Source: a bacterium (GTDB lineage Bacteria > CALINM01). Taken from it: a DNA stretch of 40,630 bases. Below are positions 19,411 through 33,669 of the stretch, piece after piece (the stretch's first letter is position 1; every line of letters begins with the position of its first letter). Under the pieces are notes generated by a model that did no database searches, was not told the origin of the DNA, and was given only the letters and a program-made list of their open reading frames with translations. The position numbers and the translations under genes are program-made. The stretch is from assembly GCA_041640455.1 (NCBI GenBank), contig JBEQAF010000005.1, positions 1-40,630 on the forward strand. The letters run 5' to 3'.

Positions 19411-20859
19411 TTAAAATAAAAAGGTAAATGCCTGTGTTGCGGCATTAAACAAAAATCCAGGAATTACCCCGAGGGCTAATACTCCCACTGCTGACAAAAC
19501 CAGCCCGATTGCTGTAGAGGGATACAGGACATTTGGGCTGACTCCGCCTTCGTAGTCCTTAAAAAACATGTAAACAAGCACCCTGAGATAATAATATGCC
19601 GAAATGGCAGAGTTAAGAACACCAATTATAGCCAGTGAGACATAGCCAGACTGAATGGCGCCTGTAAATATATAAAACTTACCAATAAATCCTGCTGTTG
19701 GCGGAACACCTGCCATAGAGAACATAAATATAACGGTCATAAGCCCCAGAAAGGGGTGCTTGAAACCCTTGCCAGAAAGATCTGAAAGCTCACAGCCGAC
19801 CCCCTCTTTCTCAAAGAGAGAGCATATGGTAAATGCTCCTACATTCATAAATACATAGGAGAATAGATAAAACATTATGGCAGATAGAGAGATCTGATTG
19901 AGGGCAACAAAACCTACCAGCATATATCCTGCATGGGCAATACTTGAATAGGCAAGCATCCTTTTTATATTTTTTTGTGGTAGTGCCGATAGATTACCGA
20001 CGGTCATAGTAATAATTGCAAGTATGGCTATAACGCCTGCTACGTCAAAAACAAGCGGGCGCAGTCCTATCAGATATACCCTTATAAGCATCAGAAAAGC
20101 CGAAGCCTTAACAGCAGTTGCCATAAAGGCTGTAACAGAGGTTGGAGCGCCGTCATAAACATCAGGAGTCCACATATGAAAGGGCACTACCGCTATCTTA
20201 AAAATAATCCCTGTAAGAACCAGAGAAGAGCCTGCTATAAGGTTTATACTCTTTTCGGTCTCAAAATATTTTGTATAGGTCTGTAGCATATAGGCAAAAT
20301 TGGTGGTGCCAAAAGCACCATAAAGTAATGCAATACCTAGAAGAAAAATGGCAGTTGAAAAGGAGCCAAGAAGAAAATATTTTAAAGCCGATTCGGCAGA
20401 CCTGATATCCTTTTTAAACATACCTGCCAGCACATATACTGAAAAGGACATGATCTCCAGCCCAAGAAAGAGCATGATAAAATCAAGAGATGAGGATATA
20501 AAGGTCATCCCTAACACAGAGAAGGTTATTAACGCATAATATTCACCCTTGTGTTTTATTTTCCCGTCAATGTAGCCTTCTGATACAAAGCTGACTATGA
20601 TACCCGATATGAAGAAAATTATATTAAAATAAGTTGAGAGATCATCGACCATAACCATGTTGGAGAAGCCGAGCTGTCTGTTTCCCATAGTATATATGTT
20701 TGCCACAAGGGCAAGCAAAAAGCCAAATACAGCTATAAGATGAAGATTGCCGAAGTTTTTTGATCTTGTGGCTGAACCTATTAGCATCAGCAGAAAGCCA
20801 AATATAGTTAAAACTATCTGGGGGGCAATTGTCCAGAAATTTATGTTAAGCTCAGTCAT
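19411..20859 (-). CDS. nuoN: Complex I subunit N (operon 2)
   Basis: ESALKYFLLG, FKIAVVPFHMWTPDVY, KRMLAYSSIAH, GFIGKF. Confidence 0.95.
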   Translation of the reverse strand: MTELNINFWTIAPQIVLTIFGFLLMLIGSATRSKNFGNLHLIAVFGFLLALVANIYTMGNRQLGFSNMVMVDDLSTYFNIIFFISGIIVSFVSEGYIDGKIKHKGEYYALITFSVLGMTFISSSLDFIMLFLGLEIMSFSVYVLAGMFKKDIRSAESALKYFLLGSFSTAIFLLGIALLYGAFGTTNFAYMLQTYTKYFETEKSINLIAGSSLVLTGIIFKIAVVPFHMWTPDVYDGAPTSVTAFMATAVKASAFLMLIRVYLIGLRPLVFDVAGVIAILAIITMTVGNLSALPQKNIKRMLAYSSIAHAGYMLVGFVALNQISLSAIMFYLFSYVFMNVGAFTICSLFEKEGVGCELSDLSGKGFKHPFLGLMTVIFMFSMAGVPPTAGFIGKFYIFTGAIQSGYVSLAIIGVLNSAISAYYYLRVLVYMFFKDYEGGVSPNVLYPSTAIGLVLSAVGVLALGVIPGFLFNAATQAFTFLF

Positions 20860-22400
20860 TACTCTCCTCCCTTAATGATGCCTTGCTTTTCAAGCTGAGA
20901 TGTGGTTATGGCAATGCTTTTGTTATACCTGTCAATAAAGCTGTTAACTGATGTGTGCATCTTGTTTAAGAAGTAATTGGGGAATATACCCATCACAAAA
21001 AAAAGTAGTATAACAGGAACCATAAGGCTTATCTCTCTCAGGTTAAGATCCTTTATATTTTTATTCTCTTCCTTTGTTATAGGACCAAACATTACCCTCT
21101 GGAACATCCAGAGCATATATGCGGCGGATAAAATAACACTTGATGCAGCAAACACAGCCCAGAGCTTGTTAGCCTTGAATGCACCCATAAATATGAGAAA
21201 CTCACCAATAAAGCCGTTGAGACCTGGCAGTCCTATTGATGATAGGGTAACGATCATAAAAAATACAGCAAATATAGGAACTGCCTTTGTAAGCCCTCCA
21301 AAGTCCTCTATAAGTCTTGTATGCCTTCTTTCATAGAGCATACCTATCATAATAAAGAGAGCACCTGTAGATAATCCATGGTTAAGCATCTGATAGATGC
21401 CCCCCTCTATCCCCTGGGAGTTGAGACTGAAAAGTCCGAGCATAACAGCGCCAAGGTGGCTAACAGACGAGTAGGCAACCAGCTTCTTAACATCCGGTTG
21501 CATCATGGCAACCAGAGCACCATATATAATACCTATAATAGAAAGTGTGACAAACAGGGGAGTGGCTGCCTGTGTGGCGTGGGGAAAAAGCCCCATAGCA
21601 AACCTTATAAAACCGTAAGTACCCATCTTGAGAAGCACACCAGCAAGGATAACACTTCCAGCAGTGGGCGCTTCCACATGGGCATCTGGTAACCAGGTAT
21701 GTAGTGGGAACATGGGGACCTTTATGGCAAAGGACAGTGCAAATGCCGCAAACAGCCATACCTGAACCTCATATGGAGCCAGTGTCTCATAAAGTTTAAG
21801 CAGATTAAAGGTATAAACGCCTGTTTTGCTGCCCACATAGAAGTATAGCACCAGAATGGCAATAAGCATTAGCACTGAGCCGAACAGGGTGTAAAGAACA
21901 AACTTTATTGCCGCATAGATCCTCCTCTTTCCACCCCAAACACCTATAATAAAGTACATGGGGATAAGCATAAGCTCCCAGAATATATAGAAAAGGAAAA
22001 GATCCAGCGCAATAAAAGCTCCCAGCATTCCAACCTCAAGAAAAAGCATGGCTATAAGAAACTCTCTTACATGCTTTTCAATGTATGTCCAGGAGCAGAG
22101 AATACAGATAGGACAAAGAAACGTGGTCAGCATAAAAAGCAGTACCGAGATACCGTCAATCCCTACAAAATAGTATATACCCAGCTTTTCAATCCATGGA
22201 TAGCTTTCTACAAACTGCATTGAGGCGGTATCTTCTTTAAAATGGTATAGCACATAAAGAGATATAAAGAAATTTATCAGGGTTACTATAAAGGCTATGC
22301 CTTTCTGAACTCCATAGTTTTCCCTGTCTATCATTAGAAGTATTATCACTCCTATTAGCGGGAAGAAGGTAACTATTGAAAGAATTGGAATCTGCTCCAT
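20859..22400 (-). CDS. nuoM: Complex I subunit M (operon 2)
   Basis: FWELMLIP, AIKVPMFPLHTWLPDAHVEAP, LLKMG, GFIGEF; TAATG overlap with nuoN. Confidence 0.95.
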   Translation of the reverse strand: MEQIPILSIVTFFPLIGVIILLMIDRENYGVQKGIAFIVTLINFFISLYVLYHFKEDTASMQFVESYPWIEKLGIYYFVGIDGISVLLFMLTTFLCPICILCSWTYIEKHVREFLIAMLFLEVGMLGAFIALDLFLFYIFWELMLIPMYFIIGVWGGKRRIYAAIKFVLYTLFGSVLMLIAILVLYFYVGSKTGVYTFNLLKLYETLAPYEVQVWLFAAFALSFAIKVPMFPLHTWLPDAHVEAPTAGSVILAGVLLKMGTYGFIRFAMGLFPHATQAATPLFVTLSIIGIIYGALVAMMQPDVKKLVAYSSVSHLGAVMLGLFSLNSQGIEGGIYQMLNHGLSTGALFIMIGMLYERRHTRLIEDFGGLTKAVPIFAVFFMIVTLSSIGLPGLNGFIGEFLIFMGAFKANKLWAVFAASSVILSAAYMLWMFQRVMFGPITKEENKNIKDLNLREISLMVPVILLFFVMGIFPNYFLNKMHTSVNSFIDRYNKSIAITTSQLEKQGIIKGGE

Positions 22401-22412
22401 ATTGTAACCCCT

Positions 22413-32843: not shown

Positions 32844-32851
32844 CAGCTCTC

Positions 32852-33325
32852 CTAAACCCTATCTTTAAGAGTTTCCTTCTCAATCTTCTTTCTCAACATA
32901 ACTATAGCCTGCACTAATGCTTCCGGTTTGGGAGGACAGCCTGCCACATACACATCAACCGGAATATATTTATCAACACCCTGAACCACATTGTAAGTGT
33001 TAAATATTCCGCCTGTACAGGCACAGGCACCGTAAGCTATGACCCATTTGGGTTCTGGCATCTGGTTATAGAGTCTTAGAACATAGGGTAACATCTTTTT
33101 TGTAAGGGTGCCGGGCACTATCAGCAGGTCTGACTGCCTTGGTGAGCCTCTGAACACCTCTGCGCCAAACCTTGCCAGATCGTGTCTTGCAGAGGCTGCT
33201 ACCATCATCTCAAGGGCGCAACAGGCAAGACCGAATGTCATAGGCCAGAGAGAATTTTTTCTCGACCAGTTAACAAGAAAATCAAGCTTAGTTGTAACAA
33301 TCCCTAAATGGCTTTCTATTCCCAT
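32852..33325 (-). CDS. nuoB: Complex I subunit B (operon 2)
   Basis: [29 protein letters not shown] (N2 ligands with tandem Cys). Confidence 0.96.
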
Positions 33326-33669
33326 TCGAGTGCTCCTTTTTGCCAGACATATACTAACCCTAATACAAGAATAAGCATGAATACACCCATTTCAACGAAA
33401 CCAAACAGCCCCAGATCTCTGTAAAGAACAGCCCATGGATACATAAACGCCGCTTCAACGTCAAACACTATAAAAAGCATGGCTACGATATAGTATCTGA
33501 CAGGGTATCTATCCCTTGCATCACCCACAGGGATGACACCGCATTCGTAGGGCATCAGCTTATCTTCATTCGGTTTTTTTTGACCTATTAATGATGAAAC
33601 GATTAATGATCCGCATGCAAAGACTAAGGCTATTATGCCCAGTATAAGTATAGGCAGATAGTTTAACAA
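33316..33669 (-). CDS. nuoA: Complex I subunit A (operon 2)
   Basis: PYECG, FIVFDVE, KGALEW; start placed at TTG 33669 behind a GGGGGAGGG SD. Confidence 0.93.

What the first reader, a model, noticed from the sequence alone, without database searches (positions are those of the whole stretch)
19411..33669. Complex I whose NADH module is replaced by a selenocysteine formate dehydrogenase plus an NADP(H) flavoprotein
Seen: gene order nuoA-B-C-D-[sfrB-like]-[fdhA(Sec)]-H-I-J-K-L-M-N with gaps of 13 nt or less or overlaps. The two inserted genes sit exactly where nuoE-F-G normally lie, and there is no nuoE or FMN/NADH-binding nuoF. NuoB/D keep the quinone-site motifs (HPATHG, RLDY, tandem-Cys N2) and NuoL/M/N/K keep their charged proton-pumping residues. 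Known: NuoG is an inactive relative of Mo-bisPGD formate dehydrogenases; formate hydrogenlyases couple FDH to a NiFe hydrogenase rather than a quinone module; Geobacter SfrAB is an NADPH oxidoreductase. Inference: a 13-subunit ion-pumping formate/NADPH:quinone oxidoreductase, or in reverse a pmf-driven quinol-to-CO2/NADP+ reductase. I do not know of a biochemically characterised example, but related gene orders may exist in databases.
Basis: partly seen in the sequence, partly recalled or inferred. Interest (0 to 1): 0.93.

Follow-up and report, generated by a model that had tools for sequence, protein, structure and literature searches.

The report
Complex I with formate dehydrogenase head
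A respiratory complex I gene cluster from a hot-spring bacterium carries an apparently active selenium-containing formate dehydrogenase and an NADPH-type flavoprotein exactly where the usual NADH-oxidising subunits lie, which suggests a proton-pumping machine that links formate/CO2 and NADPH to the membrane quinone pool.

Summary
On the minus strand, 33687-19411, lie nuoA-B-C-D, a 641-aa FdhB-type flavoprotein, an 895-aa selenocysteine FdhA, then nuoH-N. All junctions are 13 nt or less, or overlap.

The 95%-complete genome has no NuoE and no NuoF flavin domain. It has tRNA-Sec, SelA and SelB. The embedded FdhA is the only cytoplasmic FDH found.

A separate 11-gene nuo operon lies directly upstream. 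The acetyl-CoA synthase (Wood-Ljungdahl) cluster lies directly downstream.

The same insertion recurs in 11 genomes: 4 of the 6 in the window's phylum, several Thermodesulfobacteriota, and two other families. It also recurs on 6 metagenome contigs. In 5 genomes the FdhA-like gene has lost its catalytic residues and scores best as NuoG, yet it keeps every Fe-S ligand and an intact FdhB partner. That argues the pair is the electron-input head of this Nuo. NuoD of these clusters groups with N-module-bearing complex I, not with the tandem 11-subunit paralogue.

Ten literature searches found no description. Best reading (about 0.62): a reversible formate/NADPH:menaquinone, proton-pumping complex I variant.

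The parts
33316..33687 (-). nuoA (123 aa, TTG start; the true start may lie a few codons downstream)
   Evidence: Pfam Oxidored_q4, E 5e-40
32852..33325 (-). nuoB (157 aa). N2 ligands CC35-36, C101, C130.
   Evidence: Pfam Oxidored_q6; motifs
32376..32843 (-). nuoC (155 aa)
   Evidence: Pfam Complex1_30kDa
31203..32375 (-). nuoD (390 aa). Quinone-site HPATHG and RLDY are present. There are no NiFe-type Cys motifs.
   Evidence: Pfam Complex1_49kDa, E 4e-117; NCBIfam TIGR01962, 549 bits against cut-off 459; sequence
29264..31189 (-). fdhB-type flavoprotein (641 aa). Residues 14-140 are a NuoF-C-terminal [4Fe-4S] domain (C60, C63, C66, C106). Residues 149-228 carry 2x[4Fe-4S] (Fer4_20). Residues 243-542 are the FAD/NAD(P)H domain (GAGPAG, GGGNVAxD, YRR).
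   Evidence: Pfam; PDB sequence matches to NfnI/GltD/StnC and to Nqo1 residues 306-434; JGI names for homologues, 'formate dehydrogenase (NADP+) beta subunit'; motifs
26570..29257 (-). fdhA (895 aa, Sec346). It has a NuoG-type N-terminal Fe-S domain: 2Fe-2S, a His-ligated 4Fe-4S (H93/C97/C100/C106) and two ferredoxin-type 4Fe-4S. This is followed by a Mo/W-bisPGD domain with HCARLUHSS and NPLRGQNNVQG.
   Evidence: Translation; Pfam; NCBIfam Fdh-alpha, 895 bits against cut-off 666, and NuoG, 453 bits against cut-off 470; PDB, FdsA 6tg9 aligned over 3-887; alignment
28220..28222 (-). In-frame UGA, read as the selenocysteine codon 346 of fdhA
   Evidence: TGA sits at the same aligned position in 6 further homologues. 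tRNA-Sec, SelA and SelB are in the genome.
28190..28208 (-). SECIS-like hairpin, a 7-bp stem with loop GGUCU, starting 14 nt after the UGA
   Evidence: Single-sequence fold (z-score not significant). Consensus fold of 7 homologues has an invariant loop and 2 compensatory pairs.
25578..26573 (-). nuoH (331 aa). Its ATG overlaps the fdhA stop (ATGA).
   Evidence: Pfam NADHdh, E 4e-130; coordinates
25149..25574 (-). nuoI (141 aa, two CxxCxxCxxxCP)
   Evidence: Pfam Fer4 families; motifs
24646..25152 (-). nuoJ (168 aa)
   Evidence: Pfam Oxidored_q3
24341..24634 (-). nuoK (97 aa, Glu33 and Glu69)
   Evidence: Pfam Oxidored_q2; sequence
22413..24329 (-). nuoL (638 aa)
   Evidence: Pfam Proton_antipo_M/N/C; NCBIfam TIGR01974, 811 bits against cut-off 408
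20859..22400 (-). nuoM (513 aa)
   Evidence: Pfam; alignment to 8qby_M
19411..20859 (-). nuoN (482 aa)
   Evidence: Pfam Proton_antipo_M
33740..40630 (-). Context: the 3' part of a separate 11-gene nuo operon (nuoH-I-J-K-L-M-N here). nuoA-B-C-D and the start of nuoH lie on contig C44, which overlaps the window end by 127 bases. There is no gene between nuoD and nuoH.
   Evidence: Pfam; contig overlap and ORFs
11222..19399 (-). Context: RACo, CooC-like, AcsD, AcsB (ACS), AcsC and AcsE. This is the carbonyl branch of the Wood-Ljungdahl pathway. It starts 11 nt after nuoN.
   Evidence: Pfam

Best explanation
**What it is.** The 13 genes encode one membrane complex. It has the 11 core subunits of complex I: the quinone module NuoBCDI and the proton-pumping arm NuoAHJKLMN. 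The peripheral head is not NuoEFG but an NADP-type formate dehydrogenase, FdhB plus FdhA.

**Inferred wiring (by homology with Nqo1/Nqo3 and FdsA; cluster-to-cluster order is recalled, not computed).**
- NADPH reduces FAD in FdhB.
- Electrons pass through two [4Fe-4S] clusters to the NuoF-type [4Fe-4S] at the FdhB N-terminus.
- They then enter the NuoG-type Fe-S domain of FdhA: [2Fe-2S], then [4Fe-4S] clusters, then the His-ligated [4Fe-4S].
- From there one branch leads through the Mo-domain [4Fe-4S] to the Mo/W-bisPGD selenocysteine site (formate/CO2).
- The other branch leads to NuoI, NuoB cluster N2 and menaquinone at NuoD.

**Function.** The enzyme would be a reversible, proton-translocating formate/NADPH:menaquinone oxidoreductase.

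**Likely physiological direction.** This organism has two respiratory-type [NiFe] hydrogenases and periplasmic molybdoenzyme reductases. It makes menaquinone through the futalosine pathway, has a Wood-Ljungdahl pathway, and has no other cytoplasmic FDH. I therefore think the physiologically important direction is reverse: proton-motive force drives electrons from menaquinol up to CO2 and NADP+, giving formate and NADPH for the methyl branch encoded nearby.

**Shown versus inferred.**
- Shown: gene content, order and coupling; catalytic and cofactor motifs; absence of NuoE/F; recurrence of the arrangement; decay of FdhA to a NuoG-like subunit in relatives.
- Inferred: physical docking, the electron path, the direction and the substrate specificity.
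For: 1. **Exact slot and tight coupling.** nuoD/fdhB are 13 nt apart, fdhB/fdhA 6 nt, and fdhA/nuoH overlap as ATGA.

2. **No alternative head.** No NuoF 51K or NuoE domain was found in the 95.4%-complete genome, with controls positive. NuoF 51K was found in only 1 of the 6 genomes of the phylum (G004).

3. **The parts fit.**
   - The FdhA N-terminus carries all NuoG-type ligands, including the His-ligated cluster, and scores 453 bits on the NuoG model (cut-off 470).
   - The FdhB N-terminus is the NuoF C-terminal cluster domain, which matches Nqo1 residues 306-434.

4. **Recurrence.**
   - The order nuoABCD-fdhB-fdhA(-like)-nuoH..N is found in G002, G003, G005, G036, G026, L010, L012, L014 and G043.
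   - A variant, fdhA-nuoABCD-fdhB-nuoH..N, is found in L024.
   - All 6 metagenome loci with FdhB identity of 68% or more show it too.

5. **Decay series.**
   - In L010, L012, L014, G026 and G043 the FdhA-like protein lacks the Sec/Cys-His and Arg motifs.
   - These proteins fall below the Fdh-alpha cut-off, with NuoG as the best or co-best model.
   - All 10 proteins aligned (G043 was not in that alignment) still keep all Fe-S ligands, and FdhB keeps all cofactor motifs.
   - A retained, non-catalytic Fe-S subunit plus an NADPH flavoprotein inside a nuo operon makes sense only as a head module.
   - G026 is 100% complete, has a single NuoD and has no NuoF 51K.

6. **NuoD phylogeny.**
   - 8 of 10 FDH-linked NuoD form one clade (support 90/86), and 10 of 11 do so in the quick tree (SH-aLRT 82).
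   - That clade sits inside a clade (95*) with all 13 NuoEFG-linked rows, apart from the tandem 11-subunit paralogues (97*).
   - Monophyly of all 10 is not rejected (AU p = 0.16).
   - Grouping the two tandem operons of the phylum together is rejected (p = 0.0009).

7. **FDH competence.** Fdh-alpha equivalog at 895 bits against cut-off 666; Sec machinery present; conserved SECIS-like hairpin.

8. **Physiological need.** FTHFS and the acs genes are present. The only other FDH is Tat-exported. MqnA/D-type menaquinone synthesis is present. There are two [NiFe] hydrogenases and no DsrC.
Against: 1. The nearest relatives of the window's FdhB and FdhA outside its own lineage are free-standing. L018 (a Nitrospiraceae MAG) shares 64% and 71% identity. 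Its genome has a plain nuoABCDHIJKLMN 128 kb away on the same contig.

2. In the FdhB tree the nuo-linked rows are not one clade. It needs 5 changes, of which starred branches force at least 2. The window clade is sister to free L018 (100/100).

3. Of the 48 metagenome loci, about 40 with 25-65% identity show no nuo gene beside fdhB, though many contigs are short.

4. The roughly 15-aa N-terminal insert shared by the other nuo-linked FdhB proteins is absent from the window type.

5. The Moorella-type NADP-FDH is known as a soluble enzyme (recalled).

6. NuoD tree support for the FDH-linked clade is moderate, and G026 and ORM2a are not firmly inside it.

7. No fusion of NuoD with FdhB was seen among the 120 listed of 627 longer NuoD homologues.

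8. No structural, expression or biochemical evidence of docking was obtained.

9. A head with both an NADPH site and a formate site risks short-circuiting NADPH to quinone. How that would be controlled is unknown.
Confidence: 0.62

Rival explanations
1. **Co-transcription only.** FdhAB is the ordinary soluble NADP-dependent formate dehydrogenase of the Wood-Ljungdahl pathway. Its genes merely sit inside a nuo operon, next to the acs genes, for co-regulation. The surrounding Nuo would then be an 11-subunit enzyme fed by ferredoxin or another donor.
For: - The closest FdhB/FdhA relatives are free-standing pairs: L018 at 64/71% identity, and also L015, L013, L026, L173 and L176.
- The FdhB tree mixes free and nuo-linked rows.
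- The cluster sits directly upstream of the acs genes, so a pathway super-operon is plausible.
- In Thermosulfurimonas dismutans an 11-subunit nuo (TDIS_1025-1014) lies a few genes from the cytoplasmic FDH TDIS_1010 and the WL genes, without embedding (passages of PMC4911364).
Against: - Insertion exactly between nuoD and nuoH, with 13-nt and overlapping junctions, is conserved over three genera (FdhB identity down to 70%) and recurs in other phyla.
- The variant L024 has fdhA and fdhB at two different places in the same nuo operon.
- Relatives keep a non-catalytic FdhA-like protein plus FdhB in the slot. A soluble-FDH reading cannot explain this.
- G043 has both a free catalytic pair and an embedded degenerate pair.
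- The NuoD of these clusters groups with NuoEFG-bearing enzymes.
Confidence: 0.25
2. **NADPH-only head.** The complex is an NADPH:quinone oxidoreductase. FdhA serves purely as a NuoG-like wire and has no physiological formate/CO2 turnover.
For: - Five related clusters have exactly this make-up, with a degenerate FdhA-like subunit.
- FdhA nearly reaches the NuoG model cut-off, 453 against 470 bits.
Against: - The window FdhA keeps Sec, the adjacent His, the Arg motif and all four Mo-domain cluster ligands. It passes the Fdh-alpha equivalog cut-off by 229 bits.
- The costly Sec codon and SECIS-like hairpin are conserved in 7 homologues.
- It is the only cytoplasmic FDH found in a genome that has FTHFS and ACS.
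Confidence: 0.08
3. **Assembly or binning artefact.** The fdhBA genes were joined to nuo genes by misassembly of a metagenome contig.
For: The genome is a 139-contig MAG.
Against: The same order is found in three other genomes of the phylum, on contigs of 57-384 kb. It is also found in six independent metagenome contigs and in a closed chromosome, CP113000.1. Composition is even across the region.
Confidence: 0.01

Closest known systems
Canonical 14-subunit NADH:quinone oxidoreductase (NuoA-N / Nqo1-14)
   Same: All 11 core subunits, in the usual gene order and with conserved quinone-site and Fe-S motifs. The head contains a NuoG-homologous Fe-S domain (FdhA 1-437 aligns to NuoG 8e9g_G) and a NuoF-C-terminal cluster domain. 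NuoD groups with NuoEFG-linked NuoD.
   Different: There is no NuoE and no FMN/NADH-binding NuoF domain. The NuoG position is held by a catalytically equipped Sec-FDH. The nucleotide site is a GltD/NfnB-type FAD domain with NADPH-type motifs.
NADP-dependent formate dehydrogenase FdhAB of Wood-Ljungdahl organisms (Moorella type; free-standing fdhB-fdhA pairs such as L018, L015)
   Same: The same two subunits, with the same domains and a Sec. Homologues are named 'formate dehydrogenase (NADP+) beta subunit' by JGI. Identity to L018 is 64/71%.
   Different: Here the pair is encoded in the nuoEFG slot of a nuo operon and translationally coupled to nuoH. The known enzymes are soluble (recalled).
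NAD-dependent FDH FdsABG(D) of Rhodobacter capsulatus / Cupriavidus (6tg9, 6vw7), the soluble relative of the complex I N-module
   Same: FdsA aligns with FdhA over its full length, 3-887. The Fe-S layout is the same.
   Different: The Fds diaphorase is NuoF/NuoE-like with FMN. Here it is GltD-like with FAD, and only the NuoF C-terminal domain is kept.
Complex I relatives with a swapped input module: Fpo/Fqo (FpoF, F420H2), the Campylobacter/Helicobacter 12-subunit enzyme, cyanobacterial NDH-1
   Same: The same principle: an 11-subunit core plus a lineage-specific electron-input module (passages of PMC3144371).
   Different: The module is different. None of those carries a formate dehydrogenase or an NADPH-FAD subunit.
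Formate hydrogenlyase (Hyc/Hyf) and other group-4 [NiFe] hydrogenase complexes
   Same: An FDH attached to a complex-I-like membrane arm.
   Different: There the NuoD homologue is a [NiFe] hydrogenase. Here NuoD has the quinone-site His/Tyr motifs and no NiFe Cys motifs. FHL's FdhF lacks the NuoG-type N-terminal domain: 1aa6_A aligns only from residue 214.
Geobacter SfrAB, StnABC/NfnABC-type enzymes (8oh5, 9bov, 9n5u)
   Same: A GltD-like NADPH module combined with an FDH-like molybdopterin-fold subunit and NuoF-type domains.
   Different: Those are soluble, and their FDH-like part is reported as non-FDH (recalled). There is no membrane arm.
ForCE (YjgC/YjgD), the non-canonical menaquinone-linked FDH of Bacillus subtilis (8rqz; PMC8808070, search listing and abstract start only)
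   Same: A cytoplasmic FDH that feeds menaquinone. YjgC matches FdhA 211-888.
   Different: It has no proton-pumping Nuo module and no NADPH subunit.
Tandem nuo14 + nuo11 clusters of candidate phylum MBNT15 (passages of PMC9386147)
   Same: Two divergent nuo operons follow each other. One has a head module and one does not.
   Different: There the head is the ordinary NuoEFG.

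Membership tests
Respiratory complex I core (Nuo/NDH-1, 11 conserved subunits) | Presence of NuoA, B, C, D, H, I, J, K, L, M and N homologues in one cluster | tested here: met
   Pfam hits above cut-off for all 11. NCBIfam NuoD, NuoH and NuoL are above cut-off.
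Respiratory complex I core (Nuo/NDH-1, 11 conserved subunits) | A quinone-reducing rather than hydrogenase-type NuoB/NuoD: N2 ligands, His/Tyr quinone motifs and no NiFe Cys motifs | tested here: met
   HPATHG, RLDY, CC35-36/C101/C130, and no CxxC in NuoD. That these motifs define the site is recalled.
Canonical NADH-dependent complex I (14 subunits) | NuoE and an FMN/NADH-binding NuoF | tested here: not met
   PF01257 and PF01512 have no match in the own genome, with controls positive.
Canonical NADH-dependent complex I (14 subunits) | NuoG (NCBIfam TIGR01973 equivalog) | tested here: not met
   453 bits against cut-off 470. The Fdh-alpha model scores far higher.
Mo/W-bisPGD formate dehydrogenase alpha subunit (TIGR01591) | Model score above the equivalog cut-off | tested here: met
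   895 bits against cut-off 666.
Mo/W-bisPGD formate dehydrogenase alpha subunit (TIGR01591) | Sec (or Cys) followed by His, plus the conserved Arg of the active site | tested here: met
   HCARL-U346-HSS and NPLRGQNNVQG are conserved with 6 Sec homologues and lost in 5 degenerate ones. Their catalytic role is recalled from E. coli FdhH.
Mo/W-bisPGD formate dehydrogenase alpha subunit (TIGR01591) | Formate oxidation / CO2 reduction activity | not testable with these tools
   Needs an enzyme assay.
Selenoprotein | In-frame UGA, a downstream SECIS hairpin, and tRNA-Sec, SelA and SelB | tested here: met
   SelD was not searched.
NADP-dependent FDH, FdhAB type | Beta subunit with a NuoF-C-terminal cluster domain, a GltD-type 2x[4Fe-4S], and an FAD/NAD(P)H domain, adjacent to fdhA | tested here: met
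   Pfam, PDB matches, motifs, JGI names for homologues. No NCBIfam model was reached above cut-off.
NADP-dependent FDH, FdhAB type | NADPH rather than NADH specificity | tested here: inconclusive
   The YRR motif after the second Rossmann strand is conserved. That it marks NADPH specificity is recalled.
Formate hydrogenlyase / group-4 [NiFe] hydrogenase complexes | [NiFe]-binding Cys pairs in the NuoD homologue | tested here: not met
   NuoD sequence. PF00374 matches lie elsewhere in the genome.
Geobacter SfrAB | Orthology to SfrA/SfrB, and soluble NADPH oxidoreductase activity | not tested
The resemblance is recalled.

The most novel reading that the evidence does not exclude
**A complex-I-based CO2 reductase.** In this deep-branching hot-spring lineage the cell would use proton-motive force to push electrons from menaquinol, filled by respiratory hydrogenases, back through Nuo into an attached Sec-FDH/NADPH head. 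Formate and NADPH for the Wood-Ljungdahl pathway would then be made directly at the membrane. The tandem 11-subunit Nuo would do the same for ferredoxin.

**An evolutionary series.** Together with the relatives, in which the same FdhA position has decayed step by step into a NuoG-like wire, this would be a living series. It would show how the complex I N-module subunit NuoG arose from an active formate dehydrogenase docked on an 11-subunit core.
Probability: 0.3. Interest if true: 0.92.

Novelty: new variant of a known kind. Interest (0 to 1): 0.8.

Why it matters
**1. The donor of NuoEFG-less complex I.** What feeds complex I enzymes that lack NuoEFG is a long-standing open question; it is stated as open in passages of PMC11238625 and PMC3144371. 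Here the genome itself names a candidate head, and the family offers both catalytic and decayed versions to compare.

**2. Origin of NuoG.** NuoG has long been seen as a dead formate-dehydrogenase relative. A Nuo whose NuoG position is held by an apparently live Sec-FDH, with relatives at intermediate stages of decay, makes the origin of the N-module directly testable.

**3. Low-potential reductant for respiring autotrophs.** For Wood-Ljungdahl autotrophs that respire through quinones, such a complex would explain where the reductant for CO2 reduction comes from.

**4. A template for engineering.** A membrane enzyme that couples pmf, quinol and CO2/formate would be a natural template for CO2-reduction engineering.

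Tried and rejected
**Complex prediction.** I prepared alignments A2-A5 for NuoD, NuoC, NuoI and FdhA 1-270. The tool was busy twice and then declared unavailable. No fold was made, so docking remains untested.

**Expression.** The look-up of sequencing runs listed no RNA holder. The only holder is one DNA run, X1, labelled hot springs metagenome, which may be the source.

**Promoter and terminator scan of 16000-35500.** It found 64 promoter-like sites against 50.3 expected and 25 terminator-like sites against 15.4 expected. None stands out at the operon junctions, so the scan is uninformative.

**Rfam.** A gathering-threshold scan of the whole window gave 0 matches.

**Single-sequence SECIS fold.** The z-score was -0.66, not significant. 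The hairpin rests on the 7-sequence comparison.

**Rosetta-stone search.** I looked for NuoD fused to FdhB. None was found among the 120 listed of 627 longer homologues, which are mostly NuoBCD fusions plus two NuoD-NuoH fusions. This is weak evidence.

**Single origin of nuo-linked FdhB.** The idea was rejected by the FdhB tree. That tree has 20 rows. Of 28 candidate loci, 9 were left out by my filter, which required a full-length ORF under 720 aa covering query residues 40 or lower to 600 or higher.

**First genome-contig scan.** Most of its 80 loci are GltD-like proteins. 75 of the 80 have no nuo gene. L047 has only antiporter-like hits on the other strand.

**Formate hydrogenlyase.** Considered and rejected: there are no NiFe motifs in NuoD.

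**Sulfate reducer.** Considered and rejected: no DsrC was found.

**Literature.** Ten full-text searches found no paper describing fdhB/fdhA inside a nuo operon. I read only passages ('find' mode) of these papers:
- PMC4911364
- PMC5736913
- PMC12142623
- PMC4046663
- PMC3144371
- PMC4758237
- PMC11238625
- PMC13186404
- PMC8671834
- PMC9386147
- PMC7117926

For PMC8808070 I saw only the listing. Supplementary tables, for example the gene tables of MAG papers or Table S1 of PMC3144371, were not opened and may list such clusters. Subscription journals are not covered.

Full report
**1. What is in the window**

All genes of interest lie on the minus strand. ORF listing, Pfam and NCBIfam give, from 33687 down to 19411: nuoA, nuoB, nuoC, nuoD, a 641-aa flavoprotein, an 895-aa molybdopterin protein, then nuoH, I, J, K, L, M and N.

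The 895-aa protein is read through one in-frame TGA at codon 346. No junction exceeds 13 nt. The stop of the molybdopterin gene overlaps the nuoH start as ATGA.

- NuoD has HPATHG and RLDY.
- NuoB has the tandem Cys.
- NuoI has two ferredoxin motifs.

NuoM aligns with solved Nqo13/ND4 chains, and the conserved charged motifs are kept. Only the nuoA start differs, by 18 nt.

**2. The two inserted genes**

The 641-aa protein has three parts:
- Residues 14-140 are the C-terminal [4Fe-4S] domain of NuoF/HydB-type subunits. This is Pfam NADH_4Fe-4S, and it matches Nqo1 residues 306-434.
- Next comes the two-cluster domain of GltD/DPD/NfnB.
- Last comes an FAD/NAD(P)H domain. The best solved relatives are 9bov_A, 9n5u_A, StnC 8oh5_C and NfnI 5jca_L.

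It lacks the FMN/NADH domain of NuoF. Thousands of homologues exist, and JGI names several of them 'formate dehydrogenase (NADP+) beta subunit'.

The 895-aa protein aligns over its whole length with FdsA of the NAD-dependent FDH (6tg9). Its molybdopterin part aligns with FdhF of HDCR and with E. coli FdhH. It aligns with NuoG only over residues 4-437.

It passes the Fdh-alpha equivalog model (895 bits, cut-off 666) and just misses the NuoG model (453 bits, cut-off 470).

It has Sec346 in HCARL-U-HSS, the NPLRGQNNVQG arginine motif, and every Cys/His ligand for five Fe-S clusters.

Several points support reading the TGA as selenocysteine:
- The genome has tRNA-Sec, SelA and SelB.
- A hairpin with loop GGUCU starts 14 nt after the UGA.
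- That hairpin is conserved in 7 homologues, with two compensatory pairs.

So the pair is an NADP-type FdhAB, as in Wood-Ljungdahl organisms, not a generic SfrAB.

**3.

Directly upstream, after a 52-nt gap, lies the end of another nuo operon. The window end overlaps contig C44 by 127 bases. The joined sequence shows nuoA-B-C-D-H-I-J-K-L-M-N with nothing between nuoD and nuoH.

Directly downstream, after an 11-nt gap, follow RACo, CooC, AcsD, AcsB, AcsC and AcsE.

The genome is 2.06 Mb and 95.4% complete. Searches of it gave:
- no NuoF 51K domain and no NuoE
- two [NiFe] hydrogenase large subunits
- no DsrC
- an MqnA/D-type menaquinone gene
- FTHFS
- Tat-exported molybdoenzymes, including an ArrA-like one
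- one further FDH, which is Tat-exported, contains Sec and is split over two contigs

The embedded FdhA is thus the only cytoplasmic FDH found, in an organism that needs one for its Wood-Ljungdahl pathway.

**4. Recurrence**

The window's phylum holds only 6 genomes in the collection. Four have the FdhB gene; the two without it are 84% and 91% complete. All three other carriers show the whole arrangement of nuo11, nuo-fdhBA and acs.

Outside the phylum, nuoABCD-fdhB-fdhA(-like)-nuoH..N occurs in:
- G036 and G026. These are 2 of the 35 other families sampled.
- The closed chromosome of Thermodesulfobacteriota ORM2a (L010).
- A Syntrophobacterales MAG (L012).
- L014.
- G043.

L024 has the variant fdhA-nuoABCD-fdhB-nuoH..N.

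Among 48 metagenome loci, the 6 with FdhB identity of 68% or more are all nuo-linked. The rest, at 25-65% identity and many on short contigs, are not.

**5. The decay series**

The FdhA-like gene of L010, L012, L014, G026 and G043 has lost Sec/Cys-His and the Arg motif, and in part its C-terminal domains.

Their Fdh-alpha scores fall to 474, 184, 196, below 1e-40 and 433 bits. NuoG becomes the best or co-best model.

All 10 proteins aligned (G043 was not among them) keep all Fe-S ligands. Their FdhB partners keep every cluster ligand and the FAD and NAD(P)H motifs.

G026 is 100% complete. It has one NuoD and no NuoF 51K anywhere. G043 keeps a separate, catalytic, free-standing fdhBA.

This pattern is what one expects if FdhB plus FdhA(-like) is the head module of these Nuo complexes. 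In that case the wire is indispensable and the FDH site is optional. This is the strongest argument for docking.

**6. Phylogeny**

In a NuoD tree of 38 rows, 8 of 10 FDH-linked NuoD form a clade (90/86). They are far from the tandem 11-subunit paralogues.

In a 43-row quick tree:
- 10 of 11 form a clade (SH-aLRT 82).
- That clade lies inside a 95* clade with all 13 NuoEFG-linked rows.
- The 11-subunit paralogues sit in a separate 97* clade.

Monophyly of all 10 is not rejected (AU p = 0.16). Holding the two tandem operons of the phylum together is rejected (p = 0.0009). Both groups were named after the tree had been seen.

The FdhB tree is not congruent. The window clade is sister to the free-standing L018 (100/100), and at least two changes of linkage are forced. 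The genome of L018 has a plain 11-gene nuo 128 kb away.

The other nuo-linked FdhB proteins share an N-terminal insert that the window type lacks. The simplest reading is that the FdhBA module in the window's phylum replaced an older one in situ, or that L018 lost the linkage. Either way this is the main support for the rival 'soluble FDH, co-transcribed' reading.

**7. Mechanism**

*Shown:* the parts, the motifs, the order and the absence of other heads.

*Inferred by homology with Nqo1/Nqo3/FdsA (recalled):* the electron path runs as follows.
- NADPH, then FAD, then 2x[4Fe-4S], then the NuoF-type cluster of FdhB.
- Then the [2Fe-2S], the [4Fe-4S] clusters and the His-ligated cluster of FdhA.
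- Then NuoI, N2 and menaquinone.
- A side branch leads to the Mo/W-Sec site.

The organism appears to feed its quinone pool from H2 and to respire with periplasmic reductases. Reverse operation would set the Fe-S chain at a potential low enough for NADP+ and CO2 reduction. That would supply the methyl branch.

The neighbouring 11-subunit Nuo may do the same for ferredoxin (speculation). Forward operation, with formate or NADPH oxidation and proton pumping, is equally possible under other conditions.

**8. Comparison and novelty**

The system works like the known complex I relatives that have a swapped input module. It combines two well-known families: the Nuo core and the NADP-type FdhAB.

It fails the membership tests for canonical NADH-dependent complex I (no NuoE or NuoF, and NuoG below cut-off). 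It also fails those for formate hydrogenlyase (no NiFe site).

Ten full-text searches and passages of eleven papers gave no description of fdhBA inside nuo. The nearest statements found were:
- The donor of 11-subunit Nuo is unknown (PMC11238625, PMC3144371).
- T. dismutans has nuo11 near its cytoplasmic FDH (PMC4911364).
- MBNT15 has tandem nuo14 and nuo11 clusters (PMC9386147).

Supplements and subscription journals were not covered. I therefore rate it a new variant of a known kind, with some risk that it has been noted in passing elsewhere.

**9. Verdict**

The finding is real, recurrent and interesting. The gene-level claim is certain. I put the claim of one physical, reversible formate/NADPH:menaquinone complex at about 0.62. 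I put the soluble-FDH rival at about 0.25. Docking could not be tested because the complex predictor was unavailable.

Noticed in passing
window 33740-40630 (continues on contig C44 of the own genome): A second, divergent 11-gene nuoABCDHIJKLMN operon lies in tandem directly upstream. Its NuoD is 45% identical to the FDH-linked one. It belongs to a different NuoD clade and is not a lineage-specific duplicate (AU p = 0.0009).
   Followed up: yes
window 11222-19399: RACo, CooC, AcsD, AcsB, AcsC and AcsE (the carbonyl branch of the Wood-Ljungdahl pathway) start 11 nt after nuoN. The whole stretch of roughly 32 kb, nuo11 plus nuo-fdhBA plus acs, is conserved in G002, G003 and G005.
   Followed up: partly
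L010, L012, L014, L131 (G026), L168 (G043): In these relatives the FdhA-like gene in the nuo slot has lost its catalytic residues and scores best as NuoG. FdhB stays intact. They are candidate NADPH-dependent complex I enzymes with a GltD-type flavoprotein head.
   Followed up: partly
L024:4436-11950: A variant operon: a Sec-fdhA lies upstream of nuoA, fdhB alone lies between nuoD and nuoH, and there is no NuoG-like gene in the slot.
   Followed up: partly
metagenome loci L185-L187, L190, L192, L195, L197, L212: Free-standing relatives of FdhB (47-59% identity) follow two genes that look like a split FdhA. One is a molybdopterin subunit without the Fe-S N-domain. The other is a small protein, about 200 aa, that resembles the NuoG N-terminus.
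   Followed up: no
alignment A6 (FdhB N-termini): The nuo-linked FdhB proteins of L129, L024, L010, L012, L014 and L168 share an N-terminal insert of about 15 aa (DNRGK...LP.EF). It is absent from the window lineage and from the free L018.
   Followed up: no
own genome contigs C125:4-816 and C87:6289-7914: A second selenocysteine FDH alpha subunit, with a twin-arginine signal (RRDFLK), is split across two contig ends. It is presumably a periplasmic formate dehydrogenase.
   Followed up: partly
own genome C21:4667-7510, C21:14251-16821, C15:19763-21622: Three Tat-signal molybdoenzymes. One aligns over its full length with ArrA (1051 bits, below the 1600 cut-off). One aligns weakly with PhsA. 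One has no NCBIfam match.
   Followed up: partly
window 5131-7089 and 8162-10162: Two AMP-forming acetyl-CoA synthetase genes lie on opposite strands and flank an IclR-type regulator (7097-7897), just beyond the acs cluster.
   Followed up: no
window 10214-11218 and 2501-2998: ORFs of 334 aa and 165 aa have no Pfam match. The first lies directly after acsE in the same orientation.
   Followed up: no
L132 (G011:C154) and L136 (G012:C96): These show unusual nuo orders among canonical-type NuoD genes. In G011, nuoD is followed by a nuoI-like gene. In G012, nuoD is followed directly by nuoH, with NuoF-type genes about 14 kb downstream.
   Followed up: no
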